The position numbers were made by a program, and so were the translations under genes. A stretch of 64,000 nt of DNA from Kiritimatiellia bacterium (GTDB lineage: Bacteria > Verrucomicrobiota > Kiritimatiellia > UBA8416 > JABMPJ01), in contig JASLOA010000017.1 of NCBI GenBank assembly GCA_030745755.1, positions 8,896 to 72,895 on the forward strand. Direction: 5' to 3'. The notes below the pieces were generated by a model. It did no database searches. It saw nothing but the letters and a program-made list of their open reading frames with translations, and was not told the DNA's origin. Position 1 is the first letter of the stretch, and each line of letters starts with the position of its first letter. Shown here in pieces: positions 47,032 through 60,306 of the stretch.

Positions 47032-48459
47032 ATGGCAACATTCGAGCTTACGGCACAACAAGACACGCTTCCCGCTGCACCGACAGGATGGGCAGGACTG
47101 GAAAGTCGTGATCTCCTCCGTAATGCCCGCTGGTTCACGCGCATTCGTTGGGCCATCATTGCCGGGATGGCATTGGCCTGCCTGCTCCAAACTGTATGGC
47201 CACAGCTGTTGGCCTTCATTGGTGTATGCCTGCCGGTGCTTCCACTGATCATGATCGCCATCGGCCTGACCGCAACCAACCTTCTATACATCCTGCTCTT
47301 GCGCCGATACAGCGACACCACCCGGCGGCGTAAGCTTTTCATTAATCTGTGGATGCAGATTCTACTGGATCTTGCAGCACTGACATTCCTTGTCCACCTG
47401 GCGGGAAGCATCACCACGTTTGTGAGCTTGGCCTATCTCTTTCACATCGTGCTGGCTTGCATATTCTTTGCCCCGCCCTATAGCCTGCTCGTCACGCTGC
47501 TGAGCGGCCTGCTCTTTATCTGCGTGGTTGTGCTTGAACTTACAGGGGTGCTTTCGCCCTGCAACATATTGATCAACACCCCTGCTTGCCCAAGAGCCCT
47601 TGCCTCGTCCCTCCTTCACGCCTTGTCAGCGATCGTGTTCTGGCTGGCCGTCTGGTACCTGGTTGCCTTCATTGCGCAGGCGCTCCGCAAGCGCGACCGG
47701 CAACTGGCCGAGGCCAATCACCAGCTACTGCTGGCGGAGGAAGCGAATAACCGACAGGTCCTGCGCACGACGCACGACCTGAAAGCGCCCTTCTCCGGCA
47801 TAGAAAGCAACACGCAGCTGCTGCGAACGCTTCATTGGAAAGAGCTGTCAGAGCCCGTTCGCGAGATCATCGCCCGAATCGACACTCGCTCCGCCGCCCT
47901 ACGGGAACGCATCAAGGATATCCTGGTCCTTGGCGCCATCAAATCCCAAGAACAGACGGGCACTGCATCCACGGAGCGTATTGACATTCCCGCGCTTGTC
48001 GCAAGCGTGGTCACAGACCTCGAGGACAAGGCCGCGCACCGCGGCATCACGGTCGCCACAGCGGGTGCGGAGGGCGCTGTCTACAGCTCTCCCACACACC
48101 TGAAGACGCTTCTGGACAATCTGGCCTCAAACGCGATTTTCTACTCCCACGATGAGGGCACCGTGAGGATCACCATCACGGCGGACAGTGAACGCGCTGT
48201 GACCGTGTCCATTGCCGACCAGGGCATCGGTATCCGTGAAGATGCGCTGCCGAGCATCTTCGACGAATACTACCGCACCCGCGAAGCGTCCCAGCACAAC
48301 AAGATGTCAACCGGCCTCGGTCTCGCGATTGTCAAACGCATCGCCAATAATCTCGATATCGCGATCCGCGTACACAGCGAGATTGGTATCGGCACAACAT
48401 TCGACGTCGTCATCCCCCGCCGAACCAGCAACACCAATCCTGCCGCAGCACAGCACTAA
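47032..48459 (+). CDS. Membrane-bound sensor histidine kinase
   Basis: Multi-TM N-terminus; intact H-box THDLKAP; NLASNAIFYS, DQGIGI, FDEYYR, TGLGL; start uncertain (46981-47032). Confidence 0.88.
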   Translation: MATFELTAQQDTLPAAPTGWAGLESRDLLRNARWFTRIRWAIIAGMALACLLQTVWPQLLAFIGVCLPVLPLIMIAIGLTATNLLYILLLRRYSDTTRRRKLFINLWMQILLDLAALTFLVHLAGSITTFVSLAYLFHIVLACIFFAPPYSLLVTLLSGLLFICVVVLELTGVLSPCNILINTPACPRALASSLLHALSAIVFWLAVWYLVAFIAQALRKRDRQLAEANHQLLLAEEANNRQVLRTTHDLKAPFSGIESNTQLLRTLHWKELSEPVREIIARIDTRSAALRERIKDILVLGAIKSQEQTGTASTERIDIPALVASVVTDLEDKAAHRGITVATAGAEGAVYSSPTHLKTLLDNLASNAIFYSHDEGTVRITITADSERAVTVSIADQGIGIREDALPSIFDEYYRTREASQHNKMSTGLGLAIVKRIANNLDIAIRVHSEIGIGTTFDVVIPRRTSNTNPAAAQH

Positions 48460-49742
48460 CCCACCGAGCGGAGAGACGCCACTACCTCTGCGCAGGCGCT
48501 CACAAACGCCTCAATATCCGCCGTGGTATGCGCGGCTGAAACAAACCCGACCTCAAACTGCGAGGGTGGCAGATAGAAGCCGCAATCCAACATGCCATGG
48601 AAGAACGCGGCATGAGCATCCGTGTTACAGCACTTAGCCGAGGCCAGGTTCGTGACGGGGCCGATCCCAAAGAACGGGGTGAACATGCCCCCCAGGTGAG
48701 GACAGTGCATCGTGCAACCGTTCTCCGTCGCCGCCTGGTTAACGCCGGACGAGATTGTCTCGCCGTGTGCATCCAGAACGGGGTATGGATTTTCCTCCAC
48801 CAGCAAGTCAAGGGTAGCCCGCCCCGCTGCCACGGCAACGGGGTTGCCGCTCAATGTTCCGGCCTGGTAGACCGGTCCCAGCGGCGCCAGGGATTTCATA
48901 ACCTCTGCCCTGCCCCCTACGGCCCCAATGGGCATCCCCCCCCCGATGATCTTTCCCAGACAGGTCAGATCAGGCGTGACCCCGCAGAGCGATCCATAGG
49001 TTGAGGCTGCCAGCCGGAAGCCATTGATCACCTCGTCGAAGATCAGCAGGGCATTGCAGCTATCGGCGGCCGCGCGCAGTCCTTCGAGGAAACCGTGCGC
49101 GGGTGGAACCAGACCCATGTTGCCGGCGACGGGTTCGACGATGATCGCGGCGATCTCATCGCCCTGCTCGGCAACAATCTGCTGCACAGCCTCCAGGTCG
49201 TTGTACTCGGGTACCAGCACCTCGGCCACCGCTGCCGGCGACACGCCTGCAGATGCCGTGATGCCGCCCGTAAGCAGACCGCTTCCGGCTGCCACGAGCA
49301 GGTAATCGGCGTGACCATGATAGCAGCCGTTGAACTTGATGATCTTCTGGCGCCCGGTGAAACCGCGCGCAATTCGCAGGGCAGTCATCGTGGCCTCGGT
49401 GCCGGAGCTGACCAGGCGAACCATGTCCATGGAGGGGATGAGCCCGCAGAGCTGCTCAGCGAACTCCACCTCGCCCTTCGTATTGATGCCAAAGCTGCTG
49501 CCCTTCTGTGCGGCATCACAAACGGCCTGCACGATCTCCGGGCGGGCGTGCCCCAGAATCAGCGGTCCCCATGAACCGCAGAAGTCAACCAGCTCACGAC
49601 CTTCAACCGTCCAGATGCGCGTGCCCTCGCCCTTTTCGACATAGACAGGGACGCCGCCAACCGAGGTGAACGCGCGGACGGGACTGTTGACACCACCGGG
49701 CACGACCTTGCAGGCCCGTTCGAACAGTTCTTGTGATTTCAT
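48456..49742 (-). CDS. hemL: Glutamate-1-semialdehyde 2,1-aminomutase
   Basis: PGGVNSPVRAF, SWGPLILGHA, SGTEATM, FNGCYHGH, LGKIIGGG, YQAGTLSGNP. Confidence 0.97.
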   Translation of the reverse strand: MKSQELFERACKVVPGGVNSPVRAFTSVGGVPVYVEKGEGTRIWTVEGRELVDFCGSWGPLILGHARPEIVQAVCDAAQKGSSFGINTKGEVEFAEQLCGLIPSMDMVRLVSSGTEATMTALRIARGFTGRQKIIKFNGCYHGHADYLLVAAGSGLLTGGITASAGVSPAAVAEVLVPEYNDLEAVQQIVAEQGDEIAAIIVEPVAGNMGLVPPAHGFLEGLRAAADSCNALLIFDEVINGFRLAASTYGSLCGVTPDLTCLGKIIGGGMPIGAVGGRAEVMKSLAPLGPVYQAGTLSGNPVAVAAGRATLDLLVEENPYPVLDAHGETISSGVNQAATENGCTMHCPHLGGMFTPFFGIGPVTNLASAKCCNTDAHAAFFHGMLDCGFYLPPSQFEVGFVSAAHTTADIEAFVSACAEVVASLRSVG

Positions 49743-49773
49743 ACTCATCCTTGATCTTGAAAGGCGCAGTGCA

Positions 49774-50766
49774 TCAGTCGGACTGGCCGAAGAACTCATC
49801 ATACTGATTGGCCCAGTAGGAGATGATCAGATCGGTTCCCGCGCGCACAAGCGCCATCGTGGATTCACGCACCATACCGCGCAAATCACCCCACCCGCGT
49901 TCGGCCGTCGCGATCAACATCGCATACTCCCCGCTGACATTATAGACCGCCAGCGGCAGGTCCGTCCCGTCGCGCAGGCTGGCAATGACATCAAGATAGA
50001 AGAGGGAAGGCTTCGCCATGAGGATATCGGCGCCCTCGTCCTCGTCCATGTCCGACTCGCGCAGCGCCTGCCGCAGGTCCGCATAGCTGGCCTGGTAGCC
50101 ACAGCGATCTCCCGATTGCGGCGACGATTGCTCGGCCTCGCGGAACGGGCCGTACATGGCGGACGCGAACTTGGTGGAGTAGCTCATCAGGAGCGTCTCA
50201 TCAAGGCCCGCTGCCGTGAGCGCCGCGCGAATGGCCTGTACCTGGCCGTCCATCATCGCGCTGGGGGCCACGCAGTCCGCCCCCGCTGCCGCATGGGAGA
50301 CGGCCACCTTGGCCAAGAGATCGTTGGCGGCATCGTTATCGACATCGCCGCCGGCCGCAAGCGGGCCGCAGTGCCCGTGGCTCGTGTAGGCACAGAGACA
50401 GACATCCGTGAAGATCACGAGGTCGGGGTACGCCTTCCGGACGGCACGCACGGCGTTCTGCACCACACCATTCTCATCATGGGCACGGCTGCCCGATTCG
50501 TCCTTTAGCGCATCCTCGACGAGTCCAAAGATAAGAATGCCTCCTATGCCGCTTTCAACAACGGGCTTAAGCTCGGCTATGAGCGTGTCAACGCTCAAGC
50601 GGTACTGATTGGGCATGGATTCGATCGCCTGCCGCTGGTTCGTCCCTTCCACGACGAACACGGGCCAGATAAATTTCTGCGGCCCCGGCATGGGCGTGTC
50701 AAACAGTCGCCGGATCGAGGGCGTCCGCCGTAGGCGCCGCAGTCGCACGTCAGGAAAAGTACTCAT
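49774..50766 (-). CDS. hemB: Delta-aminolevulinic acid dehydratase (porphobilinogen synthase)
   Basis: RLRRLR, DVCLCAYTSHGHCG (Zn site), APSAMMDG, YSTKFAS..YGPFR, AVYNVSGEY. Confidence 0.96.
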   Translation of the reverse strand: MSTFPDVRLRRLRRTPSIRRLFDTPMPGPQKFIWPVFVVEGTNQRQAIESMPNQYRLSVDTLIAELKPVVESGIGGILIFGLVEDALKDESGSRAHDENGVVQNAVRAVRKAYPDLVIFTDVCLCAYTSHGHCGPLAAGGDVDNDAANDLLAKVAVSHAAAGADCVAPSAMMDGQVQAIRAALTAAGLDETLLMSYSTKFASAMYGPFREAEQSSPQSGDRCGYQASYADLRQALRESDMDEDEGADILMAKPSLFYLDVIASLRDGTDLPLAVYNVSGEYAMLIATAERGWGDLRGMVRESTMALVRAGTDLIISYWANQYDEFFGQSD

Positions 50767-52898
50767 AACTGGATCTCCTTGTTTGCTGTCAAACACGTCC
50801 TCACGTACGTTGTCGCGAGGGCTGTCAGGGTCGATTCCACAGTCGCCTCCGGACCCACCAGGTCGACCGCAACCTTGCGCGCCTCGAGGGCAGCCAGGGT
50901 CGGCCGGCCGATCGCTGTAACGGTTTTGCCATCAAGCAACGCGCTGCCCCACAGGTCGTCAAACGCTTCAACCGCTGAGGCGCTGGCAAAGAAAACGGCA
51001 TCAAAGTCGGGGCACTGCTCATAGGCCACCGGTTCATTGCTGTATATCACACAGTCGTCCACCGTGGCACCGGCGTTGCGCCAGCGCTCAGCAAGGTCCG
51101 GGCCGGCCTTGTCCGAGCGCAGCCGCAGAATCTTCAGACCCGGCGCGATCAGCTCCTTGACGGTGTCGGCCAGACCTTCCGCTCCAAAATCTGACGCCGG
51201 CTCGATATCAGCATTCAGGCCCAGCTCCCGAACCGCCATCGTGGTGCCGCCACCGCAGGTCACCAACTTCGGAACGCTGCGCAGGTCGACCTGTGCGCGC
51301 CGCAACAGGTCGCCGAAGCAGCGTACGGCCGATGGCGAGGTGAGCACCACCCAGTCATAGTCCGCCACGCCCTTAATGCACCGCACGCCGTCTGCAGTCG
51401 GCTCCAGGCGGATCAGGGGACGTGCCACGGCCACGCCGCCACAGTCGGTCACCAGCCTGGCTGCGCTATCCTGCAAGGCCTGGCTGCAGGTCAGCAGAAT
51501 GCGCCGCCCCTGCATAGCGCCCCACTCGGTGTGGTAGCGATAACGGGTGACCTCACCGACAACAAAGAGACCGGGCATGCCGCCGCCCTCGGCTTTCGCC
51601 TTCGCGCCAATGTCGGCCAGCGTGCCGGACACCACTCGCGCCTGGTCGCTACCGGCATTGAAGACAATGGCGGCCGGCGTCTCTGCCCGGACGCCGTCGT
51701 CGATCAGCTCCCTGGCCACCTGGTCGCTCACCGAAACGGCCATGTAGAACACGATGGGCAATGCCGCCCGCTCCTTTGAATCGATCGACCCGACCCCTCC
51801 CCCCGCCATACGCGGGGTCATGGTGCAGAATCCGCGTGACAGTCCGCGCCGCGTAAGCAGCATGCCGGTGCCGGTGGTGGCGGCCGTGAGACTGCTGACG
51901 CCTGGCAGCGTGCGGTAAGGCAGGTGGAGGGCGTCGAGGGTCTCCACTTCCTCAGCCAACCGACCGAAGACACCGGGGTCGCCGCCTTTAAGGCGCACTG
52001 TGCGCAGCCCCCGTCGTGCATACCGGGCGACTAATGCTGTGATTTCCGGCTGGGGCAGGCTGTGTCTTCCCGCCCGTTTACCAACGTGGATGCGTTCAAC
52101 GCTGGCCAGGATATGGTCGAGCAGGTCAGGTCCCATGAGGGCGTCATGCAGACAGACATCGCACTCGCGCAGTGCCTTGAGGACGTCGAGCGTGCAGGTT
52201 CCGCCCGAGCCTATGCCTCCGGCAGCAAACGTGACGGCCTTACAGAAGCAGGAGCGTATGCGGAGGAAGCGCTCATCACCGGCTCGAAAGGTCACCGCCA
52301 GAAAGCCCTGGCCATCGGGAGGCGGCAGATCGTCCAACGTGATCCAGCTCGCGATCCGGTCCGTGAGGTCGAGTCGAACCAGGGCCGCCGCGGCCATGAT
52401 GACCATGTCGAAATCACCGCTGTCCAGTTGCTGCAGGCGCTCCTCAATGTTCCCGCGGATAGTGCAGAGCTGAGCGTCCGGGAAATGCGCGTGACAGTAA
52501 GCTTCGCGCCTATCGCTGCTCACGCCGATCCTCGCATCAGGCGGGAGATCCTCCAAGGCGCGTCCCGGCGCCAGGATGATGGCATCGCGCGGGTCCGCCC
52601 GCCAGGGCAGCCAGAACCAGTCGAGTCCTTCGGACACGGGGTCGGGCAGATCCTTCGCGCTGTGCACGGCACAGTCGAGCGTTCCGTCCAGTACCTGCCT
52701 GTCCAGGTCCTGTGTAAAGAAGTCGCCCGGCGTCTCTCGCAGGTCGGTCTGCAGGTCACGGTCGCCCGGGGATGAAAGAGCCACGTCCCCAAAGGTACAC
52801 TCGGCGAACATGGCCTCAAGCCGGTCAAGCGCGTTGCGGGTCTGCACCCGGGCCAGCTTGCTGCTGCGCGTCCCTGCTTTGAAATTCAGATTCGCCAT
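50763..52898 (-). CDS. Fused hydroxymethylbilane synthase (domains 1-2) / uroporphyrinogen-III C-methyltransferase / uroporphyrinogen-III synthase (HemC-CobA-HemD)
   Basis: HemC: GTRSSKLA, AVHSAKDLP, IRGNI..RL, GQG; CobA: VGKRAG, RLKGGDP..FGR, PGVSS; HemD: ILLT, WVVLTSP..V..F, FASASAV, IGRPT. Confidence 0.88.
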   Translation of the reverse strand: MANLNFKAGTRSSKLARVQTRNALDRLEAMFAECTFGDVALSSPGDRDLQTDLRETPGDFFTQDLDRQVLDGTLDCAVHSAKDLPDPVSEGLDWFWLPWRADPRDAIILAPGRALEDLPPDARIGVSSDRREAYCHAHFPDAQLCTIRGNIEERLQQLDSGDFDMVIMAAAALVRLDLTDRIASWITLDDLPPPDGQGFLAVTFRAGDERFLRIRSCFCKAVTFAAGGIGSGGTCTLDVLKALRECDVCLHDALMGPDLLDHILASVERIHVGKRAGRHSLPQPEITALVARYARRGLRTVRLKGGDPGVFGRLAEEVETLDALHLPYRTLPGVSSLTAATTGTGMLLTRRGLSRGFCTMTPRMAGGGVGSIDSKERAALPIVFYMAVSVSDQVARELIDDGVRAETPAAIVFNAGSDQARVVSGTLADIGAKAKAEGGGMPGLFVVGEVTRYRYHTEWGAMQGRRILLTCSQALQDSAARLVTDCGGVAVARPLIRLEPTADGVRCIKGVADYDWVVLTSPSAVRCFGDLLRRAQVDLRSVPKLVTCGGGTTMAVRELGLNADIEPASDFGAEGLADTVKELIAPGLKILRLRSDKAGPDLAERWRNAGATVDDCVIYSNEPVAYEQCPDFDAVFFASASAVEAFDDLWGSALLDGKTVTAIGRPTLAALEARKVAVDLVGPEATVESTLTALATTYVRTCLTANKEIQL

Positions 52899-52911: not shown

Positions 52912-53406
52912 TCAGACGGCTTCTTCGTCCGCGATAGTATCCAGGAGTTGTGCGATCCTGTCTTTGACCACGCGCGCAATCCGGCAGGACCGCCCGCCCG
53001 TCGCCACGCTGACCACAAGTCCCCGCTTCCGGCATATGGCCGGCATGACCAGGTCGCCATCGGGCCAGTTGCTGTCGGCCGCACTGCACAGCACTCCGGC
53101 CGCGCGGGCACACGCAATGACCTGCTGGTTCACCTCGACGTTATCGGTCACCGCGAAGACCAGTCGCTGCCCGTCCGCGTCTCCCGCTTCAAATTCGCGC
53201 GGCACATGCTGGATGCGCTCCTCGGTTACCGCGTCCGCCAGCTCGGGGATCAGCTCCGGGCTGACCACTGTAACGCCCGCCCCGGCATCGAGTAGGTGTC
53301 CTACTTTGCGCGCCGCAATCTTCCCCCCGCCGACCACCAGGCAGGGCAATCCCGCCACCAGGAGGCTGGCCGGCAGAATCGGAAGTCCTTCACTCTCTTT
53401 GCGCAT
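52912..53406 (-). CDS. Precorrin-2 dehydrogenase (SirC / CysG N-terminal-like)
   Basis: LVVGGGKIAARKV, VVSPE, FAVTDNVEVN, VSVATGG. Confidence 0.85.
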   Translation of the reverse strand: MRKESEGLPILPASLLVAGLPCLVVGGGKIAARKVGHLLDAGAGVTVVSPELIPELADAVTEERIQHVPREFEAGDADGQRLVFAVTDNVEVNQQVIACARAAGVLCSAADSNWPDGDLVMPAICRKRGLVVSVATGGRSCRIARVVKDRIAQLLDTIADEEAV

Positions 53407-53418
53407 CAGGTCCCCATC

Positions 53419-54222
53419 TCACCGTTCGGTGTCTTCGTATTTACTCAGCATGTCATCCACCTGGTCGAGCCAGAGATCTATCACGGCGTCGTACTCGGCC
53501 AGGCCCTTCAGGATCGGCTCACAGTGGATGCCGGCCTCCTCCAGCGCGTGTTTCCACGAGCCTTCCGCATCGCCGCAGATATCGCCGCGCGCCGAGAAGC
53601 CGGCGGCAATCATAAGCGGCGCCAACTGCGCATGCCGCACACCGGCCTGTACGCAACGTGCTACTACGTCGTCGCGATTGGGCCGGGAAATCATGCTACC
53701 AACAAACACCTCCCTGTCAAGATGGCGACAGAAAGCACTGGCCGCATCGATGACCGCATCCGTCCCGGCTGAGCGGCTGCCGTGGGCAACCAGGACCAGC
53801 GCGGCGGAGGGATCCTGCGGAGACGGAAGCGCACCGATAAGTGTTTCGATCAGGCGTCTCATATCGGCTTGTGACTCAAGCAGGGGCCGAGTCAGATCAG
53901 CCTGCTGCAGAGCACGGGAACCCGATTGAACCTGTGCGACTGACTCCTGGAGCTCTCTGTATTCCTTCCCTGCCACCATGTGGAGGGGTTTGACCACAAC
54001 ATGCGTGGCGCCGGCCTTCCGCAGACGGGCGAGAGCTTCCTCGGGCGTATCGATACGCATGCCCTTCTGCCGCAACTTCTTGTGGACCCCCGTTGAGCTA
54101 TAGGCCAGGGCATGGGGCGTTGCGCTGAAGCGCTCGTCGATGCGGGTCATCAGCCGCTCCAGAACGGGGGCCGCCTGCCTGCAGGTTGTCCCGGGAACCA
54201 CGAGCAGAATCGCTTTCTTCAT
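53419..54222 (-). CDS. cbiK: CbiK-family class II chelatase, degenerate metal site
   Basis: KKAILLV..GT, PEEAL, PLHMVAGKEY, LVAHGS, PLMIAAG, SWK..LE.AG, GLAEY. Confidence 0.8.
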   Translation of the reverse strand: MKKAILLVVPGTTCRQAAPVLERLMTRIDERFSATPHALAYSSTGVHKKLRQKGMRIDTPEEALARLRKAGATHVVVKPLHMVAGKEYRELQESVAQVQSGSRALQQADLTRPLLESQADMRRLIETLIGALPSPQDPSAALVLVAHGSRSAGTDAVIDAASAFCRHLDREVFVGSMISRPNRDDVVARCVQAGVRHAQLAPLMIAAGFSARGDICGDAEGSWKHALEEAGIHCEPILKGLAEYDAVIDLWLDQVDDMLSKYEDTER

Positions 54223-55244
54223 GACGCGGCGGTCCCGGCAGGGGAATCGTTCTCGCAGAAGAAAACGGGGCTCGTCTTCTTGAACTCGCGTTTCGAAATA
54301 AGGACACGCCCCTCCGTGAGTCCGGCGTCCTTGGAGATTCGCTCAAAGATCTCCTGCGTGATTTCGCGTTGGCGGGCATGGACCATGGCAAACAGGTTAT
54401 AGTGGAAATCGCCCACGGGCGGACGTTCGTAGCAGTGGGTCACTTCCGGGCAACGGGCCAGGCAGCGGCCGGCCTCGTCGATTGTGGCCGGGTCGGCGCG
54501 CCAGATGCACATGCCGTTGGCAGTGAATCCCGCATTGCGATGCCTCAGAATAACGCCCACTCGTCGCAGAATGCCATCCTCTTTCCAGCGCCTGAGGCGG
54601 ACGAGCAGTTCGGTCGTATCCCAATCCAGTTCCTGCGCCACGGCCACAAAGGGCTCGAGGGTGAGCGGCAGGTTGCCCTGCATCCTTCTGATCAGCGCCT
54701 TTTCGTGCGGGGAGAGATCCGGCGGATCGAGCGCGGCGCCCGATTCGGGGGGACGGTCATGGTGCGCGGCCGTGTCACCGGCCGTACCTGCGTCGAGTAC
54801 GACCTGCACCTTGAAGCGCTTGATGGCAGGCAGATTGAGAAGGGCGTAGGGGGCTAACGCGGCAGCCATCGTATCGAGTTCAGACTGGAGCCTGTCGGCC
54901 GGGGCGGTCATGGTGAACCACAGGTTGGGGTTGCCTTCGCGCTCGTAGCAGTGTGTGACCCCGGTATGCGGCGCGAACAGTTCGGCCACGCGCTCGAGCT
55001 CGCTCTCGGGAACGTCAACCGCACAGAGCGTGCTGCCGTAGCCCAGGTGGCGCGAGTCGAACACGGCGCCGAAGCGGCGGGCGATGTTGCTCTCAAACAG
55101 GGACTTGAGTGCCTGAAGCACGTCGGGGCCCGTAAGCCCCAGGTCGCGTCCCAGGTCCGCGAAAGGAGTGGCTGTCAGCGGGACACCCCGCTGCAAGACA
55201 ACGCGCAAGCGGGTGGCGGGGTCATGGGGTCGGACAGAGGTCAT
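54219..55244 (-). CDS. ahbAB: Siroheme decarboxylase, fused AhbA-AhbB
   Basis: Two Lrp/AsnC-like halves: RRFGAVFD..VTHCYER..NLWFT and LRRVG.ILRH..GF.AN..VTHCYER..YNLFAMVH. Confidence 0.88.
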   Translation of the reverse strand: MTSVRPHDPATRLRVVLQRGVPLTATPFADLGRDLGLTGPDVLQALKSLFESNIARRFGAVFDSRHLGYGSTLCAVDVPESELERVAELFAPHTGVTHCYEREGNPNLWFTMTAPADRLQSELDTMAAALAPYALLNLPAIKRFKVQVVLDAGTAGDTAAHHDRPPESGAALDPPDLSPHEKALIRRMQGNLPLTLEPFVAVAQELDWDTTELLVRLRRWKEDGILRRVGVILRHRNAGFTANGMCIWRADPATIDEAGRCLARCPEVTHCYERPPVGDFHYNLFAMVHARQREITQEIFERISKDAGLTEGRVLISKREFKKTSPVFFCENDSPAGTAAS

Positions 55245-55258
55245 CGTATCAGGCTCCT

Positions 55259-56326
55259 TCACTGGGCTGTCGCCAGGGCGGGGGGGACGTAGAGACAGTC
55301 GGGATCCTCGTTGAGGAAGTCCGTCGTATCGGCGAAGGCACGGGCGCGACAGCCGGCGCAGAGCTTGCGGTACCCGCATGCCCCACACTTACCCTTCAGT
55401 TCCGCAGGATTGCGCAGGGCCTTGAATTCGGGGGAGCCCTCCCAGATCTCACCGAAGGGCGTCTCCCTGACATTGCCGACCTGGACGGGCAGGTAGCCGC
55501 ACGGCTGGACGTCGCCCGTGCGCGAGATAAAGCACACGGCTGATCCGGCCAGGCAGCCGCGTGTCATGGCATGCATGCCGTGAGCGCTGCCGCCGACCTC
55601 AATGCCCCGTTCGCGCGACACCTCGTGCATGATGCGGTAGTACTGTGGCGCGCAGGTTGCCTTGATATGTACCTTCCCGCGCAGCTCCAGCGACTTGTCG
55701 AAGAGCCAGCGCAGGACCGTATCCATCTCATCCGACGACAGGCGGACATCCTCGCTGATCTCGGCGCCGCAACCGACCGGCACCAGCACGAAGACATGAA
55801 ACGCATCCGCCCCATGCGCAAGCGCCAGCTCCAGAATGGCTTCGATCTCGTGCAGGTTATGGCGCGCAATCGTGACGTTAACCTGTGCAGGAAGCCCCGC
55901 CCGGCGCATCGCGTCTAGTCCTGCGAGGGCATCATCGAAACTGCCCGGCAGACCACGGAAGGCGTCATGTGTCTCGGGACAGGCGCCGTCCAGGCTGACA
56001 CTGGCCTTCTTGATACCGCTGGCCACGATACGGGCGGCAATCGCGTCATCCACGAGGGTCCCGTTGGTCGCCAACGCCACACGCGAGAACATCTCTGAAC
56101 AGGCCGAGGCGATGTCGTAGATGTCTTCCCGCACCAGCGGTTCACCACCGGTCAGGATCATGATCGGATCGGCGCAGTCCCGGATGTCGCGTGCCACGGC
56201 CAGGATCTCCTCGGTCGTAAGCTCGCCTTCTACAAAATGGTCCTGGGCCTCTGCGCGACAGTGCTTGCACGTCAGGTTGCAGCGCGCCGTGAGTTCCCAG
56301 AAAACTAGACGGAGTGCATCCTTCAT
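55259..56326 (-). CDS. ahbD: Radical SAM/SPASM heme synthase AhbD
   Basis: WELTARCNLTCKHCRAEA, TGGEPL, KATCAPQYYR, GCLAG, CGGCRARA-like SPASM cysteines. Confidence 0.85.
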   Translation of the reverse strand: MKDALRLVFWELTARCNLTCKHCRAEAQDHFVEGELTTEEILAVARDIRDCADPIMILTGGEPLVREDIYDIASACSEMFSRVALATNGTLVDDAIAARIVASGIKKASVSLDGACPETHDAFRGLPGSFDDALAGLDAMRRAGLPAQVNVTIARHNLHEIEAILELALAHGADAFHVFVLVPVGCGAEISEDVRLSSDEMDTVLRWLFDKSLELRGKVHIKATCAPQYYRIMHEVSRERGIEVGGSAHGMHAMTRGCLAGSAVCFISRTGDVQPCGYLPVQVGNVRETPFGEIWEGSPEFKALRNPAELKGKCGACGYRKLCAGCRARAFADTTDFLNEDPDCLYVPPALATAQ

Positions 56327-57507
56327 AGTCCAATTTCCTCATCAGTCAGGTAGCAGTCCGGTTCCTCCGCCCACACATCGCCGCTGACAGCTTCGGCCCG
56401 TACCCGGAAGTTGCCGTTGCAGATGTCGAGCCACTTGCAGCTCGCGCAGCGCCCCTTAATGTACTCCTTGCGGGTCCGCAGTTTCCCCATCAGGTCGTCG
56501 GATGTATCCGTCCAGATCTCGCCGAAGGGGCGCTCCTTAACATTCCCGAATGAGTAATGGCGCCAGAACTGGTCGGGGTGAACCGATCCGTCCCAGCTCA
56601 CGCACCCGATGCCCGTGCCGCTGCTGTTGCCCCCGTTCATCTTGAGCAGGTTCAGAACGCTCTCAGCCTTTTCCGGGTCCTCACGCAGGAGACGCAGGTA
56701 GAGGTAGGGCCCGTCGGTGTGGTTATCCACGGTCAGCACTTCAACCGGATTGCCCCCCTCGTGCATCGCCTTGGTACGGTCCATGATCATATCCACTGTC
56801 GCGCGTGTCTCCTCATGACTCATACGGGCGTTCGTGATCAGCTTGCTGCCCCGGCCTGTGTAGACCAGGTGATAGAAGCATACGCGTGGAATGCCTTCGC
56901 GCTCGACCAGGTCAAGAATACCAGCCACATCGCCGTAATTGCTGCGTGTCATGGTGAAACGCAGGCCTACTTTGACACCACGCGCGAGACAATTTCGCAC
57001 CCCTTCAAGGGCCAACTTGAACGCGCCCTCGACGCCGCGGAACTTGTCGTTGGTCGCTTCCAGTCCGTCCAGGCTTATGCCGACGTAGGAGAGCCCGGCG
57101 TCCTGCAGGCGCGCGGCCATGTCGGGCGTGATCAGAGTTCCGTTGGTCGACACCACGGCACGCATGTTCTTCTGAGCCGCCCGCTCGATCAGCTCGAATA
57201 TATCGGGCCGCATGAGCGGCTCACCGCCTGAAAACAGCACAACCGGTGCGCCGAAATCGGCGAGATCGTCGATCAGTCCGAGTCCCTCTTCATGCGTCAG
57301 TTCGCCGCTGTAATCGATGTTACGCGACTGCGAGTAGCAGTGTACGCAGCGCAGGTTACAGCGTCGCCCGACGTTCCAGACCACCACAGGCTTCTTGTCT
57401 TCCGAGAACTGCAGAAGGTGTGAAGGCAGATCCCTGGACTTGCGTCCATAGCGGAGAGGATCTGACTGCTCAACGGTGCCGCAGTAGAGTTTGGATATTC
57501 CGATCAT
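56323..57507 (-). CDS. ahbC: Radical SAM 12,18-didecarboxysiroheme deacetylase AhbC
   Basis: MIGISKLYCG, KKPVVVWN..RCNLRCVHCY, CFYHLVY.GRG, TVDNH.DG, PDQFW. Confidence 0.9.
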   Translation of the reverse strand: MIGISKLYCGTVEQSDPLRYGRKSRDLPSHLLQFSEDKKPVVVWNVGRRCNLRCVHCYSQSRNIDYSGELTHEEGLGLIDDLADFGAPVVLFSGGEPLMRPDIFELIERAAQKNMRAVVSTNGTLITPDMAARLQDAGLSYVGISLDGLEATNDKFRGVEGAFKLALEGVRNCLARGVKVGLRFTMTRSNYGDVAGILDLVEREGIPRVCFYHLVYTGRGSKLITNARMSHEETRATVDMIMDRTKAMHEGGNPVEVLTVDNHTDGPYLYLRLLREDPEKAESVLNLLKMNGGNSSGTGIGCVSWDGSVHPDQFWRHYSFGNVKERPFGEIWTDTSDDLMGKLRTRKEYIKGRCASCKWLDICNGNFRVRAEAVSGDVWAEEPDCYLTDEEIGL

Positions 57508-58844
57508 TATTCCTGGTCTTTCCTATCTTGTATCTGCGCATGCGGAGCCGCCTGCGACGCGTCATCGTCTTCGCTGCTGAAGCCGAAGAGGTCGCTCACG
57601 ATCTCCGTGTATTCTTCCCATCGTCCATTCTTTGCCGCCCGCTTCATACTTTCCCGGGGTGCGGCAAGAACCTTGTTTACTATCTTCGTCGCCAGCACGC
57701 GAATCTCTTCGTGCGCGGCCCCGGGCAGGGCCGACAGCGCTTCCTTCGCGAGGGCCCGCTCCAGTGCATCCGCAGCGATGCGGCGCCCATGGGCATCAAA
57801 TTGCTGCATCATGCGCCCGAGACCGGGAGTGTCGGGCACAGCCTTCAGCTCTGCAACACCCTCTCTTACGATCTCCCACGCCTTGTCCATCTCCGCCTGG
57901 CGCCGGGCAAGATTTGTCGCGGCCATCTTCTGCAGGTCGTCAATGTGGTACAGGTAGACGTTCTGCAGTTCACCAACAGCGGCCTCAACATCCCGTGGGA
58001 CGGCGATATCGATCAGCAGTATCGGCCGTCCACGGCGTGTCTCGACGGCGCGGCGCATGGCTTCCGTGTGCACGACGCAGTGGGGTGCGCTGGTTGAACT
58101 GATCAGGATATCGGTGCGTGGCAGGTAGTCCTTCAGCAGGTCCCACTGGATCGCACGGCCGCCATATTGTTCGGCCAATGCCCGCCCGTTCCCGTGCGAT
58201 CGGTTCAGAACCAGTACATCGGCTACGCCCTTCTCAATCAGGCTCCTGAGGGCCAGTTCGGCTGTTTCGCCGGCACCCACGATCATGACGGTCTTCTCGC
58301 CCAGGTCTTCAAACACCTTCCCGGAAAACTCCACGGCAAGCGAACTGACCGAAACGCGACCCCGGCAGATATCCGTCTCCGAATGCACGCGTTTCGCGCT
58401 TCGGAAGGCGCCCTGGAATGCGGTATGCAGCAGTTTACCGATCGTCTGCGCCTCCTGCGCGAGCAGGTAAGCCTGCTTGACCTGGCCCAGGATTTCAGTC
58501 TCGCCCACGACCATCGAATCCAAGCTCGCGGCGACAGCGAGCAGATGCTCGACGGCCTGGGGGCCTTTCTTGGTGTAGAAATGCGGTCGCAACACGTCGC
58601 TCTGCGCGGCGCCGACATCTGCCAGCAGCAGTCCAACCAGGTCCGCACCTTTCAGGACCTCGGGCGCGGCGGCGGCATACAGCTCCGTTCGGTTGCAGGT
58701 CGAGACGAGGGCCAATTCCGCCTCAGGAATCTGAGCCCGGATACGCTGCAGGGCTCTCGGGATGGTCTCCGGCCGAAATGCAACCGTTTCCCTGACCTCG
58801 ATCGGGGCCGTCCGGAAATTAATACCTATTGCTGCCAGGTTCAT
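57507..58844 (-). CDS. hemA: Glutamyl-tRNA reductase
   Basis: STCNRTE, SLDSMVVGETEILGQVK, VSVSS, GAGE, NRS, IDIAVPRD. Confidence 0.97.
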   Translation of the reverse strand: MNLAAIGINFRTAPIEVRETVAFRPETIPRALQRIRAQIPEAELALVSTCNRTELYAAAAPEVLKGADLVGLLLADVGAAQSDVLRPHFYTKKGPQAVEHLLAVAASLDSMVVGETEILGQVKQAYLLAQEAQTIGKLLHTAFQGAFRSAKRVHSETDICRGRVSVSSLAVEFSGKVFEDLGEKTVMIVGAGETAELALRSLIEKGVADVLVLNRSHGNGRALAEQYGGRAIQWDLLKDYLPRTDILISSTSAPHCVVHTEAMRRAVETRRGRPILLIDIAVPRDVEAAVGELQNVYLYHIDDLQKMAATNLARRQAEMDKAWEIVREGVAELKAVPDTPGLGRMMQQFDAHGRRIAADALERALAKEALSALPGAAHEEIRVLATKIVNKVLAAPRESMKRAAKNGRWEEYTEIVSDLFGFSSEDDDASQAAPHAQIQDRKDQE

Positions 58845-59695
58845 CAGAAGTCGGTTGCTCCAACAGCCACGAAGATATGACTCCCATCGGCGAAGATATG
58901 AATACCCAGAAAGGTCAACAGCACGAGGATGAACCCCGCAATGGTCACGAGGGCCATTCCCTGTCCGTGCCGGTGCGCACTGGTGCGCATATGCACCAGG
59001 ACTGCGTAGATGCCCCAGATCACGATGGTGGACATCACCTTGGGGTCACGGACCCACTCGTACCCCACCCCGCTGAGACGGGCGAGATGAACCCCGAACG
59101 CGAGCGACAGAGTCAGCATCAGGAAGGCCGCGCCAATCTGGCGCGACATGAGATGATCGAGCGACTCCAAGGGAGGTAATCGTTCAAACACCACACCCAA
59201 ATGCTTGCGTTTGAGGTTGTTGTTCTGGACCACGTAGGCAAGCGCCAGGACACCGGATACCGTGCAGAGGGCAAACCCAATGAAGGCCGTGCAGACGTGC
59301 AGCCCCAGCCATGTACTGCCGGCCGCAGGAGACGTCTGCACCTGCTGCCCCATCGCGGAGCCGCCCAGAAGCAGGCACAGGGTAACATATGGGACCAGGA
59401 CCACTGAGATCCCGCGCATGCGGTGTTGCAAGGCGACATAGAGATAGGTCGCAATCACGCTGAGGGCATAGAACAGCAGCATGTCAGAACGGCCAAACAC
59501 GGGAAGCCGGCCTGCTTGCAGACCGTGTAGTGACAGTACGGCGAGCAGCGGGACGGCGCCGGCGCTCAGCAACATGATGATCCGTTTCTCACCGGCCTTG
59601 CCGGGGGACACCATGTAGAGGACCGAGAACGCTGAGGCCAGGCAGCACAGCACTGTCCCAATGCCTGTAAGAATCGATCCGAGAAAGCCCATCAT
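58844..59695 (-). CDS. CcsA-like (HemX/YpjD-type) membrane protein
   Basis: About 8 TM helices; WLGLHV, LPPLESLD, DPK with a degenerate Trp-rich motif; TGATG-coupled to hemA. Confidence 0.8.
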   Translation of the reverse strand: MMGFLGSILTGIGTVLCCLASAFSVLYMVSPGKAGEKRIIMLLSAGAVPLLAVLSLHGLQAGRLPVFGRSDMLLFYALSVIATYLYVALQHRMRGISVVLVPYVTLCLLLGGSAMGQQVQTSPAAGSTWLGLHVCTAFIGFALCTVSGVLALAYVVQNNNLKRKHLGVVFERLPPLESLDHLMSRQIGAAFLMLTLSLAFGVHLARLSGVGYEWVRDPKVMSTIVIWGIYAVLVHMRTSAHRHGQGMALVTIAGFILVLLTFLGIHIFADGSHIFVAVGATDF

Positions 59696-59955
59696 GTAGT
59701 CCCTCGCCCCCTGCATCAGCCACGGAAGCCCCTGCTCCGTGACCCCACTCAAGAATAACGATCCGCATTTTATCCTACTGTCTCAACTGGTAGCAACCTT
59801 CATGTTGCCATACGATATGGTGCATTTACCCCTCTTTCACGTGTGCTCCTCACAGCCCCATCCGACCAATCCAAGAAGAATCCACTTGAGAGAAGAGCAC
59901 GGGGTAGGCATAGTACGTGACTCCGTTGAAGCAGTCACAGGAGAAGGATTGACCC

Positions 59956-60306
59956 ATGGGAAGCCCACTGCAGCCCGTCGTTTCCGCGTTTTTCGCAGTC
60001 GTTCTTGCCGGCGCCCTGACTGCCGCCGAGGGGCATGACCCATCGCTCTACGCCGGCGCCAACTCCTGCCGCATGTGCCACAGGGAGAAGTACAAGTCCA
60101 AGGCGGTCATGATGGACCGCGACAGGTGCATTGAGAAGGGGATGATCTATCCGGCCACAGAGAGCTGCGTCCTCCCCCACAACGATGAGTCCCCCTCCTG
60201 GGATCCGGAGCGATACACCACGAAGGACGGCAAGAAGGTCGGGTTCGATGTCGAGCAGGCCTACGGGAGGATCAAGCACCCCGTGCCGGCTGAGCACAAG
60301 ACATGA
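59956..60306 (+). CDS. c-type cytochrome (one CxxCH), cytochrome c554-like framework
   Basis: Signal peptide; YAGANSCRMCH; later CVLPH; distal KHP; ATGA overlap with resB. Confidence 0.7.
   Translation: MGSPLQPVVSAFFAVVLAGALTAAEGHDPSLYAGANSCRMCHREKYKSKAVMMDRDRCIEKGMIYPATESCVLPHNDESPSWDPERYTTKDGKKVGFDVEQAYGRIKHPVPAEHKT

What the first reader, a model, noticed from the sequence alone, without database searches (positions are those of the whole stretch)
50763..52898. Triple HemC-CobA-HemD fusion whose HemC lacks domain 3
Seen: the HemC part is only about 219 aa and ends at ...GQGFLAVTFRAGDERFLRIRSCFCK, running straight into the methyltransferase. The C-terminal domain with the GGC motif, which carries the cofactor-binding Cys in canonical (about 310-aa) HemC, is absent; two Cys (52248-52250, 52242-52244) sit at the junction. 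The CobA SAM motif is altered (AAGGIGS for GAGPGD) while KGGDP is retained. CobA-HemD fusions are known and I recall short HemC proteins in Chlamydiae, but I do not know of a characterised three-enzyme version. Inference: channelling of unstable hydroxymethylbilane and uroporphyrinogen III toward precorrin-2, with the junction Cys or a non-covalent mode holding the dipyrromethane cofactor.
Basis: partly seen in the sequence, partly recalled or inferred. Interest (0 to 1): 0.7.

Follow-up and report, generated by a model that had tools for sequence, protein, structure and literature searches.

The report
Three-enzyme haem fusion with cofactor-domain-less HemC
This is a real, widely conserved gene that fuses three consecutive tetrapyrrole enzymes, and its first enzyme belongs to a large unstudied lineage that lacks the domain and cysteine thought essential for holding that enzyme's built-in cofactor.

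Summary
ORF 50763-52898 (-) encodes 711 aa: HemC domains 1-2 (residues 7-211), CobA (222-460) and HemD (464-690). HemC domain 3 (PF03900) is absent from the protein, from all six frames of the 64-kb window and from 47 related loci.

This is not an assembly join. More than 160 homologues at 35-79% identity share the architecture. The gene sits in a complete siroheme-dependent haem operon (hemA-ahbC-ahbD-ahbAB-cbiK-sirC-fusion-hemB-hemL) as its only HemC.

The junction-cysteine idea fails: Cys217 and Cys219 occur in 3 and 1 of 120 relatives.

All domain-3-less HemCs form one clade in 97% of bootstraps:
- stand-alone proteins in Chlamydiae;
- SirC-HemA-HemC fusions in Planctomycetota;
- two types of HemC-CobA-HemD fusion.

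They keep every cleft residue (Ec R11, D84, R131, R132, R149, R155) at 95-100%. They share no cysteine, and 11 of 120 chlamydial-type proteins have none.

My reading is an active hydroxymethylbilane synthase that works without a thioether-anchored cofactor in cis. A domain 3 supplied in trans, or an inactive module, is not excluded. I found no paper describing this. I rate it a new variant of a known kind.

The parts
50763..52898 (-). Whole ORF, 711 aa plus stop: HemC(short)-CobA-HemD fusion
   Evidence: An identical 711-aa protein was called on 4 contigs (P0001).
52251..52898 (-). HemC module, residues 1-216 (domains 1 and 2 only). Catalytic Asp83 is at 52650-52652. Arg11, Arg130, Arg131, Arg148 and Arg154 are present.
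   Evidence: PF01379 E 5.7e-53. Foldseek matches 1pda, 4htg and 7ccx over 213-227 columns at rmsd 1.9-3.7 A, covering about two thirds of the target.
52713..52775 (-). Remodelled active-site lid, residues 42-62 (SSPGDRDLQTDLRETPGDFFT), carrying the short-clade signature (Ec G60->D, L61->F; Lys59 lost)
   Evidence: In E. coli this loop (42-60) contacts domain 3 (PMC3945110).
52236..52250 (-). Junction residues 217-221 (CFCKA) with the two non-conserved cysteines
   Evidence: Cys217 is found in 3 of 120 relatives and Cys219 in 1 of 120. The family consensus is R-x-L-F-V-K.
51519..52235 (-). CobA (SUMT) module, residues 222-460. The SAM loop is AGGIGS. D252 and K274 (the equivalents of CysG D248 and K270) and KGGDP are retained.
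   Evidence: PF00590 E 5.3e-31. TIGR01469 scores 182.6 bits against a cutoff of 185.
50763..51509 (-). HemD (UROS) module, residues 464-711, plus the stop codon
   Evidence: PF02602 E 2.5e-37. The TSPSAV motif is invariant.
52912..53406 (-). sirC-like precorrin-2 dehydrogenase (CysG N-terminal type, 164 aa), immediately upstream
   Evidence: PF13241; TIGR01470 89.7 bits.
53419..54222 (-). CbiK-type sirohydrochlorin chelatase
   Evidence: PF06180 E 2.4e-47.
54219..55388 (-). Fused AhbA-AhbB siroheme decarboxylase (probable true start Met49 at 55244)
   Evidence: NF040708 and NF040707 both above cutoff.
55259..56326 (-). AhbD-like radical SAM (haem b synthase)
   Evidence: TIGR04545 is the best hit at 444 bits, below the cutoff of 500.
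56323..57507 (-). AhbC radical SAM (didecarboxysiroheme deacetylase)
   Evidence: TIGR04546 scores 680 bits against a cutoff of 650.
57507..58844 (-). hemA glutamyl-tRNA reductase
   Evidence: TIGR01035 393 bits.
49774..50796 (-). hemB porphobilinogen synthase, immediately downstream
   Evidence: PF00490 E 2.6e-125.
48456..49802 (-). hemL glutamate-1-semialdehyde aminomutase
   Evidence: PF00202. The fusion-hemB-hemL order is conserved.

Best explanation
The ORF is a functional trifunctional enzyme of a PVC-group bacterium, Kiritimatiellia-like by its named homologues. The three modules would convert porphobilinogen to hydroxymethylbilane (HemC), then to uroporphyrinogen III (HemD), then to precorrin-2 (CobA). 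Precorrin-2 feeds the siroheme-dependent (Ahb) haem pathway encoded by the same operon.

The HemC module belongs to a distinct, apparently monophyletic 'short HemC' clade. The clade ends at the domain 1 / domain 3 hinge, so it has no domain 3 and no cofactor cysteine. The clade keeps the whole catalytic and pyrrole-binding cleft but shares no cysteine, and some members have none. I therefore infer that it makes hydroxymethylbilane without a thioether-anchored dipyrromethane in cis. The primer or growing chain would be held by the conserved arginine cluster. That could mean a non-covalently bound dipyrromethane. Alternatively the first porphobilinogen could act as primer, giving an aminomethylbilane that the same Asp then deaminates.

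In this Kiritimatiellia-type fusion the methyltransferase follows domain 1 with a conserved linker of about 6 residues. It therefore sits where domain 3 would begin, which should favour hand-over of the unstable bilane.

**Shown:** architecture, conservation, clade, operon context, lack of a conserved cysteine.
**Inferred:** catalytic activity, anchor-free mechanism, channelling.
For: 1. **Architecture.** It is conserved in 120 listed clusters and about 167 representatives at 35-79% identity, none with domain 3.
2. **Operon.** It has one gene for every step from Glu-tRNA to haem b. This is the only HemC, CobA or HemD in 64 kb.
3. **Synteny.** The order sirC/hemA - fusion - hemB - hemL recurs across Kiritimatiellia, Lentisphaerae, Omnitrophota, Planctomycetales, Paludibacter, Prevotella and Spirochaetes. 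There is no second HemC or domain 3 within +-10 kb of 44 loci.
4. **Cleft residues.** Ec R11, S13, Q19, F62, K83, D84, R131, R132, R149, R155, R176 and Q198 are 95-100% conserved in every short group. R131 and R132 are the pair I recall, from mutagenesis reported in the 1990s literature, as needed for cofactor assembly.
5. **Single clade.** All domain-3-less HemCs fall in one split of an NJ tree, recovered in 97% of 200 bootstraps. They share the signature G60D, L61F, E67D (55 of 55 short against 5 of 65 canonical).
6. **No shared cysteine.** Eleven of 120 stand-alone chlamydial-type proteins are cysteine-free.
7. **Stand-alone members.** They sit next to hemD in genome-sized chlamydial contigs in the order rnc-radA-hemC-hemD. 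A fused partner is therefore not required to replace domain 3.
8. **Structure.** AF2 gives pLDDT 90.7 and pTM 0.89, with a short linker. The HMBS two-domain fold is confirmed by Foldseek.
9. **CobA module.** The equivalents of CysG D248 and K270, and the GGDP motif, are invariant.
Against: - No whole genome carrying a short HemC could be scanned. A canonical hemC or a stand-alone domain 3 elsewhere is therefore not excluded.
- Reviews state that the cofactor is thioether-linked to Cys242 (PMC7242693). I also recall from the older literature that the E. coli C242S mutant is inactive. An anchor-free mechanism has no precedent.
- The CobA SAM loop has lost the Pro and Asp of GAGPGD in this sub-family. 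TIGR01469 and TIGR04545 score just below their curated cutoffs.
The position of CobA relative to the HemC cleft is inferred from linker length and pTM only.
- The NJ tree rests on 220 columns and a limited sample of canonical sequences.
Confidence: 0.62

Rival explanations
1. Domain 3 with its cysteine is supplied in trans by a separately encoded small protein, or by a domain fused to another protein. The holoenzyme would then still carry a normal thioether-linked dipyrromethane.
For: Canonical chemistry requires Cys242 on domain 3 (PMC7242693; PMC3945110). The cofactor-site arginines are fully retained. Whole genomes could not be searched.
Against: No domain-3-like sequence (E < 1) lies in the 64-kb window or in +-8-10 kb of 47 short-HemC loci from at least six phyla. 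Every other pathway gene is clustered there. The lid loop that touches domain 3 in E. coli is remodelled across the whole clade, as expected after a real loss.
Confidence: 0.14
2. In this Kiritimatiellia-type fusion a cysteine of the fused partner serves as the anchor. Candidates are Cys235 in the altered CobA loop GGTCT, or Cys249. The methyltransferase domain would functionally replace domain 3.
For: Cys235, Cys249 and Cys548 are specific to this fusion type (80%, 87% and 73%). They replace I, L or V of canonical CobA and HemD. CobA follows domain 1 with no real linker. Cys235 lies about 18 residues after the end of domain 1, whereas Cys242 lies about 22 residues after the hinge in E. coli.
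Against: Several members of the same type lack these cysteines: L020, L022, L028 and L029. The positions are hydrophobic-core positions in canonical CobA. Type B fusions, planctomycete fusions and stand-alone chlamydial proteins have no equivalent, and some have no cysteine at all.
Confidence: 0.1
3. The HemC module is catalytically dead. It would be a porphobilinogen- or bilane-binding or scaffolding domain, and a canonical HemC elsewhere in the genome does the chemistry.
For: The defining cofactor cysteine and domain 3 are missing. Genome-wide absence of a second hemC was not tested.
Against: The catalytic Asp and all substrate and cofactor arginines are conserved at 95-100% over sequences only 32-42% identical between groups. 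It occupies the hemC slot of complete hem operons in many phyla. The chlamydial genomes I recall list this as their only hemC (own knowledge, not tested here).
Confidence: 0.1
4. It is an assembly join, a frameshift or a gene-calling artefact that merges separate hemC and cobA-hemD genes and truncates hemC.
For: None beyond the unusual architecture. Separate hemC plus cobA-hemD genes do lie side by side in many other bacteria.
Against: The same junction motif (R-x-L-F-V-K-x-V-x-F) is conserved in more than 115 independent assemblies. No domain-3 remnant exists in any frame. The protein was called identically on 4 contigs.
Confidence: 0.01

Closest known systems
Canonical hydroxymethylbilane synthase HemC (E. 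coli, PDB 1PDA; TIGR00212; PF01379 + PF03900)
   Same: It has the same two-lobed, periplasmic-binding-protein-like domains 1 and 2 (Foldseek rmsd about 2-3.7 A over 213-227 columns). It has the same catalytic Asp and the same arginine cluster.
   Different: Domain 3 (Ec 222-313), the cofactor turn and Cys242 are missing. The active-site lid is remodelled: Lys59 is lost, with G60D, L61F and E67D.
Stand-alone short HemC of Chlamydiae (NCBIfam NF002202 / PRK01066, 241-position model)
   Same: It falls in the same clade in the domain 1-2 tree and carries the same signature residues. It has the same end point at the hinge and the same lack of a conserved cysteine.
   Different: The chlamydial proteins are free-standing (214-241 aa) and sit next to a separate hemD. 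The window's module scores only 138 bits against a cutoff of 251 on that model, so it is a sister group, not an equivalog. I found no biochemical study of either.
Bifunctional CobA-HemD fusions (Desulfovibrio vulgaris, Clostridium josui, Lactobacillus reuteri; recalled from the literature, not re-checked here)
   Same: The modules come in the same order, methyltransferase then uroporphyrinogen III synthase. The role is the same: feeding precorrin-2 to siroheme, alternative haem or B12 pathways. Such genes lie next to a separate full hemC in many loci.
   Different: Here a HemC module is fused in front. In this sub-family the CobA GAGPGD loop has become [GA]-[AG]-G-[VIA]-G-x.
Full-length HemC-CobA-HemD triple fusions (Enterocloster bolteae L049, Prevotella sp. 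CAG:279 L057, Lachnospiraceae L061 and L071, P0236)
   Same: They have the same three enzymes in the same order in one polypeptide.
   Different: They are 800-857 aa and keep domain 3 with its GGC or GSC cysteine and a long linker. Their HemC parts fall outside the short clade. They also appear uncharacterised.
Planctomycete SirC-HemA-HemC(short) fusions (P0197, P0202, P0222, about 700 aa)
   Same: The HemC module belongs to the same short clade and ends about 15 residues after PF01379. It is again fused to neighbouring pathway enzymes.
   Different: The partners differ (precorrin-2 dehydrogenase and glutamyl-tRNA reductase). HemC is C-terminal, so nothing follows domain 1 except a conserved PLDLGDR..LPW tail.
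CysG siroheme synthase (PDB 1PJQ)
   Same: It is the best solved-structure relative of the CobA module (E 3e-40). The D248 and K270 equivalents are conserved. It is likewise a multifunctional tetrapyrrole enzyme.
   Different: CysG fuses the methyltransferase to the dehydrogenase/chelatase. Here those functions are separate genes (sirC, cbiK), and the methyltransferase is fused to HemC and HemD.

Membership tests
Hydroxymethylbilane synthase (HemC, EC 2.5.1.61) | Domains 1 and 2 (PF01379) with the transferrin / periplasmic-binding-protein-like fold | tested here: met
   PF01379 E 5.7e-53 covering 2-205 of 207. Foldseek matches HMBS structures at rmsd 1.9-3.7 A.
Hydroxymethylbilane synthase (HemC, EC 2.5.1.61) | Catalytic Asp84 and the pyrrole-carboxylate-binding residues R11, R131, R132, R149, R155 (E. 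coli numbering) | tested here: met
   D83, R11, R130, R131, R148 and R154 are present in the window protein. They are 97-100% conserved in all short groups.
Hydroxymethylbilane synthase (HemC, EC 2.5.1.61) | Domain 3 (PF03900) | tested here: not met
   There is no PF03900 hit. The TIGR00212 match stops at profile position 215 of 293. A domain-3 HMM finds nothing in the protein, the window or the relatives.
Hydroxymethylbilane synthase (HemC, EC 2.5.1.61) | Cysteine carrying the dipyrromethane cofactor (Cys242) | tested here: not met
   The Cys242 region is absent. The junction cysteines are not conserved. The clade shares no cysteine and has cysteine-free members.
Hydroxymethylbilane synthase (HemC, EC 2.5.1.61) | Makes hydroxymethylbilane from four porphobilinogen molecules | not testable with these tools
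   This is inferred only from the operon slot and residue conservation.
Short HemC clade (NCBIfam NF002202 type) | Scores above the curated cutoff of NF002202 | tested here: not met
   The score is 138 bits against a cutoff of 251. Stand-alone relatives score 243-245 and type B modules 175-187.
Short HemC clade (NCBIfam NF002202 type) | Groups with domain-3-less HemCs in a domain 1-2 tree and carries their signature (D60, F61, D67 in Ec numbering) | tested here: met
   The split is recovered in 97% of 200 NJ bootstraps. D59, F60 and D66 are present in the window protein.
Uroporphyrinogen-III C-methyltransferase (CobA / SUMT, TIGR01469, PF00590) | Class III methyltransferase domain with the GGDP, PG[IV][ST] and catalytic Asp/Lys (CysG D248/K270) motifs | tested here: met
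   PF00590 E 5.3e-31. D252, K274 and K304-G-G-D307 are invariant.
Uroporphyrinogen-III C-methyltransferase (CobA / SUMT, TIGR01469, PF00590) | Canonical GAGPGD SAM loop and the curated equivalog score | tested here: inconclusive
   The loop is AGGIGS. TIGR01469 scores 182.6 against a cutoff of 185, and NF004790 scores 184.8 against 198. It is the only SUMT candidate in the operon.
Uroporphyrinogen-III synthase (HemD, PF02602) | HEM4 domain | tested here: met
   PF02602 E 2.5e-37 covering 3-229 of 231.
Siroheme-dependent (Ahb) haem pathway operon | AhbA/B decarboxylase, AhbC and AhbD radical SAM enzymes together with siroheme-synthesis genes | tested here: met
   AhbA, AhbB and AhbC score above their cutoffs. 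AhbD is the best hit but falls below its cutoff. SirC and CbiK are present.

The most novel reading that the evidence does not exclude
The short HemC clade would be a hydroxymethylbilane synthase that works with no covalently attached dipyrromethane. The clade comprises this fusion, the type B fusions, the planctomycete fusions and the chlamydial stand-alone proteins. The enzyme would either hold a free dipyrromethane or bilane as a non-covalent primer, or use the first porphobilinogen itself as primer. In the fusions, the product would pass straight to the attached synthase and methyltransferase. This would overturn the view that the Cys-linked cofactor is a universal requirement of this enzyme.
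Probability: 0.4. Interest if true: 0.85.

Novelty: new variant of a known kind. Interest (0 to 1): 0.62.

Why it matters
**What is at stake.** Hydroxymethylbilane synthase is the textbook example of an enzyme that builds and covalently keeps its own dipyrromethane primer on a cysteine of domain 3 (PMC7242693, PMC13564367).

**What was found.** A large natural lineage lacks that domain and shares no cysteine. It nevertheless occupies the hemC slot of complete haem operons in Kiritimatiellia, Lentisphaerae, Planctomycetota, Omnitrophota and some Bacteroidota. It also sits beside hemD in Chlamydiae.

**If it is active.** Chain priming, chain-length counting and product release must then work differently. 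This is directly testable with a small, expressible protein.

**Wider uses.**
- Pathway annotation: pipelines currently name these proteins either HemC or CobA.
- Chlamydial haem synthesis as a drug target.
- Engineering of compact porphobilinogen-to-precorrin-2 modules for B12 or siroheme production.

**If it is not active.** The result is still useful if a trans-acting domain 3 or a second hemC turns up. The short module would then be a new kind of split or accessory HemC.

Tried and rejected
- **Junction cysteines as cofactor anchor.** Rejected. They occur in 3 and 1 of 120 relatives.
- **Any conserved cysteine in domains 1-2 of the short clade.** None found. C76 and C135 are specific to the Kiritimatiellia type. 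The planctomycete family has a different one (Ec107). Type B has none above 60%, and chlamydial-type proteins have none above 57%.
- **Domain 3 hidden in another frame or a neighbouring small ORF.** None in the window, in 44 fusion loci or in 3 chlamydial loci.
- **A second hemC, cobA or hemD in the window.** None.
- **Assembly or frameshift artefact.** Rejected by conservation.
- **Reading inter-domain geometry from the AF2 model.** Coordinates are not exposed. Only pTM, pLDDT and secondary structure could be used.
- **Literature.** Seven full-text searches and five papers read gave no description of a natural domain-3-less HMBS or of the triple fusion. The 2017 MMBR haem review was not held.
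- **Whole-genome test for a second hemC.** Not possible.
- **Coevolution analysis of inter-domain contacts.** Considered but not run. About 280 related sequences would give too little signal.


Full report
**1. The observation**

The minus-strand ORF 50763-52898 starts at ATG 52896-52898. The start lies 13 nt after the stop of the upstream gene and behind an AAGGGGA motif. The ORF encodes 711 aa.

Pfam finds three domains:
- Porphobil_deam, PF01379, residues 7-211;
- TP_methylase, PF00590, residues 222-430;
- HEM4, PF02602, residues 479-690.

It finds no Porphobil_deamC (PF03900). The NCBIfam hemC model TIGR00212 is matched only over positions 2-215 of 293.

The CobA loop reads AAGGIGS, and KGGDP is present. 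I built an HMM of domain 3 from 25 canonical HemCs. It finds nothing in any of the six frames of the 64-kb window (best E 0.47).

**2. Not an artefact**

A search of 5.8 billion proteins returned 120 clusters at 54-79% identity. All carry the same three Pfam domains and none has PF03900. Those that carry names are Kiritimatiellia, Kiritimatiellota or Verrucomicrobia MAGs.

An exhaustive HMMER search with the HemC part alone found about 167 such fusions among representatives at 50% clustering. None has domain 3. The junction motif R-x-L-F-V-K-x-V-x-F is nearly invariant. An assembly join or frameshift is therefore excluded.

**3. Context**

The gene lies in a minus-strand operon that encodes each step from glutamyl-tRNA to haem b exactly once:

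| Gene | Coordinates | Note |
|---|---|---|
| CcsB/HemX-like membrane protein | 58844-59752 | |
| hemA | 57507-58844 | |
| ahbC | 56323-57507 | above curated cutoff |
| ahbD-like | 55259-56326 | best hit, below cutoff |
| ahbA-ahbB (fused) | 54219-55388 | |
| cbiK | 53419-54222 | |
| sirC-like | 52912-53406 | |
| HemC-CobA-HemD fusion | 50763-52898 | |
| hemB | 49774-50796 | |
| hemL | 48456-49802 | |

A CcsB cytochrome c biogenesis gene, with an adjacent unassigned membrane-protein gene, lies on the other strand at 60303-62337. No other HemC, CobA or HemD is present in the window. The truncated module is thus the only candidate for the hydroxymethylbilane synthase step of this operon.

**4. 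Distribution and relatives**

A scan of one genome per GTDB species and local classification show two kinds of short triple fusion.

- **Type A** includes the window. It occurs in Kiritimatiellia, Lentisphaerae/Victivallales and 'Verrucomicrobia' MAGs. It has no linker, and its CobA loop is altered to [GA][AG]G[VIA]Gx.
- **Type B** occurs in Omnitrophota, Planctomycetales, Paludibacter, Prevotella and Spirochaetes, at about 30% identity to the window. Its HemC ends ...LF..ID.R, and the CobA loop is the canonical GAGPGDP.

Both types keep the order sirC/hemA - fusion - hemB - hemL.

Other architectures also exist:
- Full-length triple fusions that keep domain 3: Enterocloster bolteae, Prevotella sp. 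CAG:279, other Lachnospiraceae, and P0236 (857 aa).
- The common arrangement of a separate full hemC next to cobA-hemD.
- About 700-aa planctomycete proteins of the form SirC-HemA-HemC, whose HemC again stops just after PF01379.
- Abundant stand-alone proteins of 214-241 aa with PF01379 only. Those that carry names are Chlamydiales, Waddliaceae and Chlamydia sp., plus one Aerophobetes. Some sit on contigs up to 3.1 Mb.

In two genome-sized contigs with the stand-alone form the order is rnc-radA-hemC(short)-hemD. From memory, this matches the CT297-CT299 order of Chlamydia trachomatis. The stand-alone proteins nearly reach the cutoff of NCBIfam NF002202, a curated 241-position 'hydroxymethylbilane synthase' model. 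They score 243-245 bits against a cutoff of 251.

**5. One clade**

I built a neighbour-joining tree of the domain 1-2 region from 120 sequences and 220 columns. All domain-3-less HemCs fall on one side of a single split. This split was recovered in 97% of 200 bootstraps. The only two 'intruders', L048 and L069, proved to be domain-3-less as well.

The clade shares signature changes concentrated in and just after the active-site lid (E. coli numbering):
- G60 to D;
- L61 to F;
- E67 to D (55 of 55 short against 5 of 65 canonical);
- I48 to D;
- loss of K59.

In E. coli this lid (residues 42-60) contacts domain 3 (PMC3945110). The remodelling therefore fits a real, ancient loss of domain 3. The full-length triple fusions lie outside this clade, so the three-enzyme fusion arose more than once.

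**6. What is kept and what is missing**

Every residue known to line the cleft is 95-100% conserved in all short groups. These are Ec R11, S13, Q19, D46, F62, K83, D84, S128, S129, R131, R132, R149, R155, R176, Q198 and G199. Between groups the sequences are only 32-42% identical.

The model of the window protein is confident (pLDDT 90.7, pTM 0.89). Its N-terminal part superposes on solved HMBS structures over 213-227 columns at rmsd about 2-3.7 A. That covers about two thirds of each target, as expected without domain 3.

No cysteine is shared.
- Cys217 and Cys219 occur in 3 and 1 of 120 relatives.
- C76 and C135 are type A-specific. The planctomycete family has its own cysteine at Ec107.
- Type A-specific C235, C249 and C548 replace hydrophobic residues of canonical CobA and HemD, and several type A members lack them.
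- Among 120 stand-alone proteins no column exceeds 57% cysteine, and 11 proteins have no cysteine at all.

An intrinsic thioether anchor cannot be a general property of the clade.

**7. The other two modules**

The CobA part aligns with CysG 218-453 (E 3e-40). It keeps the equivalents of D248 and K270 (D252 and K274, invariant), KGGDP, PGVSS and LTRRG. Only the first SAM loop deviates, and only in type A.

Curated equivalog scores are marginally below cutoff: TIGR01469 gives 182.6 bits against 185. Since it is the only methyltransferase in an operon that needs precorrin-2, I take it as active. This is an inference. The HemD part is a full HEM4 domain with its TSPSAV motif invariant.

**8. Mechanism**

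*Shown:*
- a conserved trifunctional architecture;
- a complete operon with no other HemC;
- an intact catalytic cleft;
- no domain 3 and no conserved cysteine;
- a rigid, conserved junction of about 6 residues.

*Inferred:*
- The module is the cell's hydroxymethylbilane synthase.
- It works without a thioether-linked primer in cis.

Two chemistries are conceivable. In the first, a dipyrromethane or bilane is held non-covalently by the arginine cluster. R131 and R132, which I recall as required for cofactor assembly in E. coli, are retained. In the second, synthesis is primer-free. The first porphobilinogen provides the free alpha-position, and the resulting aminomethylbilane is deaminated by the same Asp. 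It is then hydrated or passed directly to HemD. As I recall, aminomethylbilane was reported in the older literature to be accepted by the deaminase.

In type A the methyltransferase begins where domain 3 would. This placement and the high pTM suggest a compact body that could shield the unstable bilane. The stand-alone chlamydial form shows that a fused partner is not required for whatever replaces domain 3.

**9. Rivals**

- **A trans-acting domain 3.** It is disfavoured because nothing of the kind is found near 47 loci in which every other pathway gene is clustered.
- **A partner-domain cysteine in type A only.** It is disfavoured by exceptions within type A.
- **A dead binding module with a canonical hemC elsewhere.** It is disfavoured by the conservation of the catalytic residues and by the module's place in the operon.

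None of these is excluded, because no whole genome could be scanned.

**10. Comparison and novelty**

Reviews describe HMBS as a monomer of about 35 kDa with a dipyrromethane on Cys242 (PMC7242693; PMC13564367). Seven literature searches found no mention of a natural domain-3-less enzyme or of the triple fusion. Databases already hold and name these proteins: NF002202, and MAG annotations as HemC or CobA. The gene itself is therefore not new.

What appears undescribed is threefold:
- these proteins form one broad clade;
- the clade lacks the cofactor-bearing domain and any conserved cysteine;
- it nevertheless occupies the hemC slot of complete pathways.

I rate it a new variant of a known kind, with interest 0.62.

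Noticed in passing
P0197, P0202, P0222, P0256 (related proteins, about 700 aa): Planctomycetota carry SirC-HemA-HemC fusions. Their HemC is also domain-3-less and ends in a conserved PLDLGDR..LPW tail. A shorter SirC-HemC(short) form (P0226) and a SirC-HemC(full) form (P0235) also exist.
   Followed up: partly
L033-L043 (e.g. L035 9962-11977, L041 9935-11932, L037 9968-12019): A second, about 30%-identical type of short HemC-CobA-HemD fusion has a canonical GAGPGDP loop. It occurs in Omnitrophota, Planctomycetales, Paludibacter, Prevotella and Spirochaetes, again followed by hemB-hemL. Prevotella-labelled genomes carry either the short form (L041) or the full form (L057).
   Followed up: partly
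P0286-P0404; L082 8001-8675; L084 8001-8690: Stand-alone short HemCs of Chlamydiae sit in the order rnc-radA-hemC-hemD. Eleven of 120 contain no cysteine at all.
   Followed up: yes
window 54219-55388 (-): AhbA and AhbB are fused in one ORF. The listed GTG start gives a 48-aa arginine- and proline-rich extension that overlaps ahbD. The real start is probably Met49 (ATG at 55242-55244), 14 nt after the ahbD stop.
   Followed up: partly
window 52912-53406 (-): The SirC-like protein is only 164 aa and matches positions 7-146 of the 205-position CysG N-terminal model. It lacks most of the C-terminal part. Chelation is presumably left to the adjacent CbiK.
   Followed up: no
window 58844-59752 (-) and 60303-62337 (+): A CcsB-like membrane protein (115 bits, below the cutoff of 187.6) heads the hem operon, reminiscent of HemX in Bacillus hemAXCDBL. 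A bona fide CcsB (61537-62337) lies divergently, next to an unassigned 419-aa membrane protein (60303-61562) that has no NCBIfam hit and may be a ResB/CcsA-type partner.
   Followed up: no
window residues 235, 246, 249, 527, 548, 616 of the fusion (e.g. 52194-52196, 52152-52154, 51255-51257): Kiritimatiellia-type fusions have several lineage-specific cysteines (73-99% conserved, depending on sampling). They replace I, L or V of canonical CobA and HemD. The window protein has 18 cysteines, whereas type B fusions have 2-6. The reason is unknown.
   Followed up: partly
L048 9917-11350; L069 9956-11320: Omnitrophota and Termititenax loci carry 455-478-aa ORFs with a short HemC followed by about 240 residues. 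These may be HemC(short)-CobA two-enzyme fusions without HemD. Domains beyond HemC were not checked.
   Followed up: no
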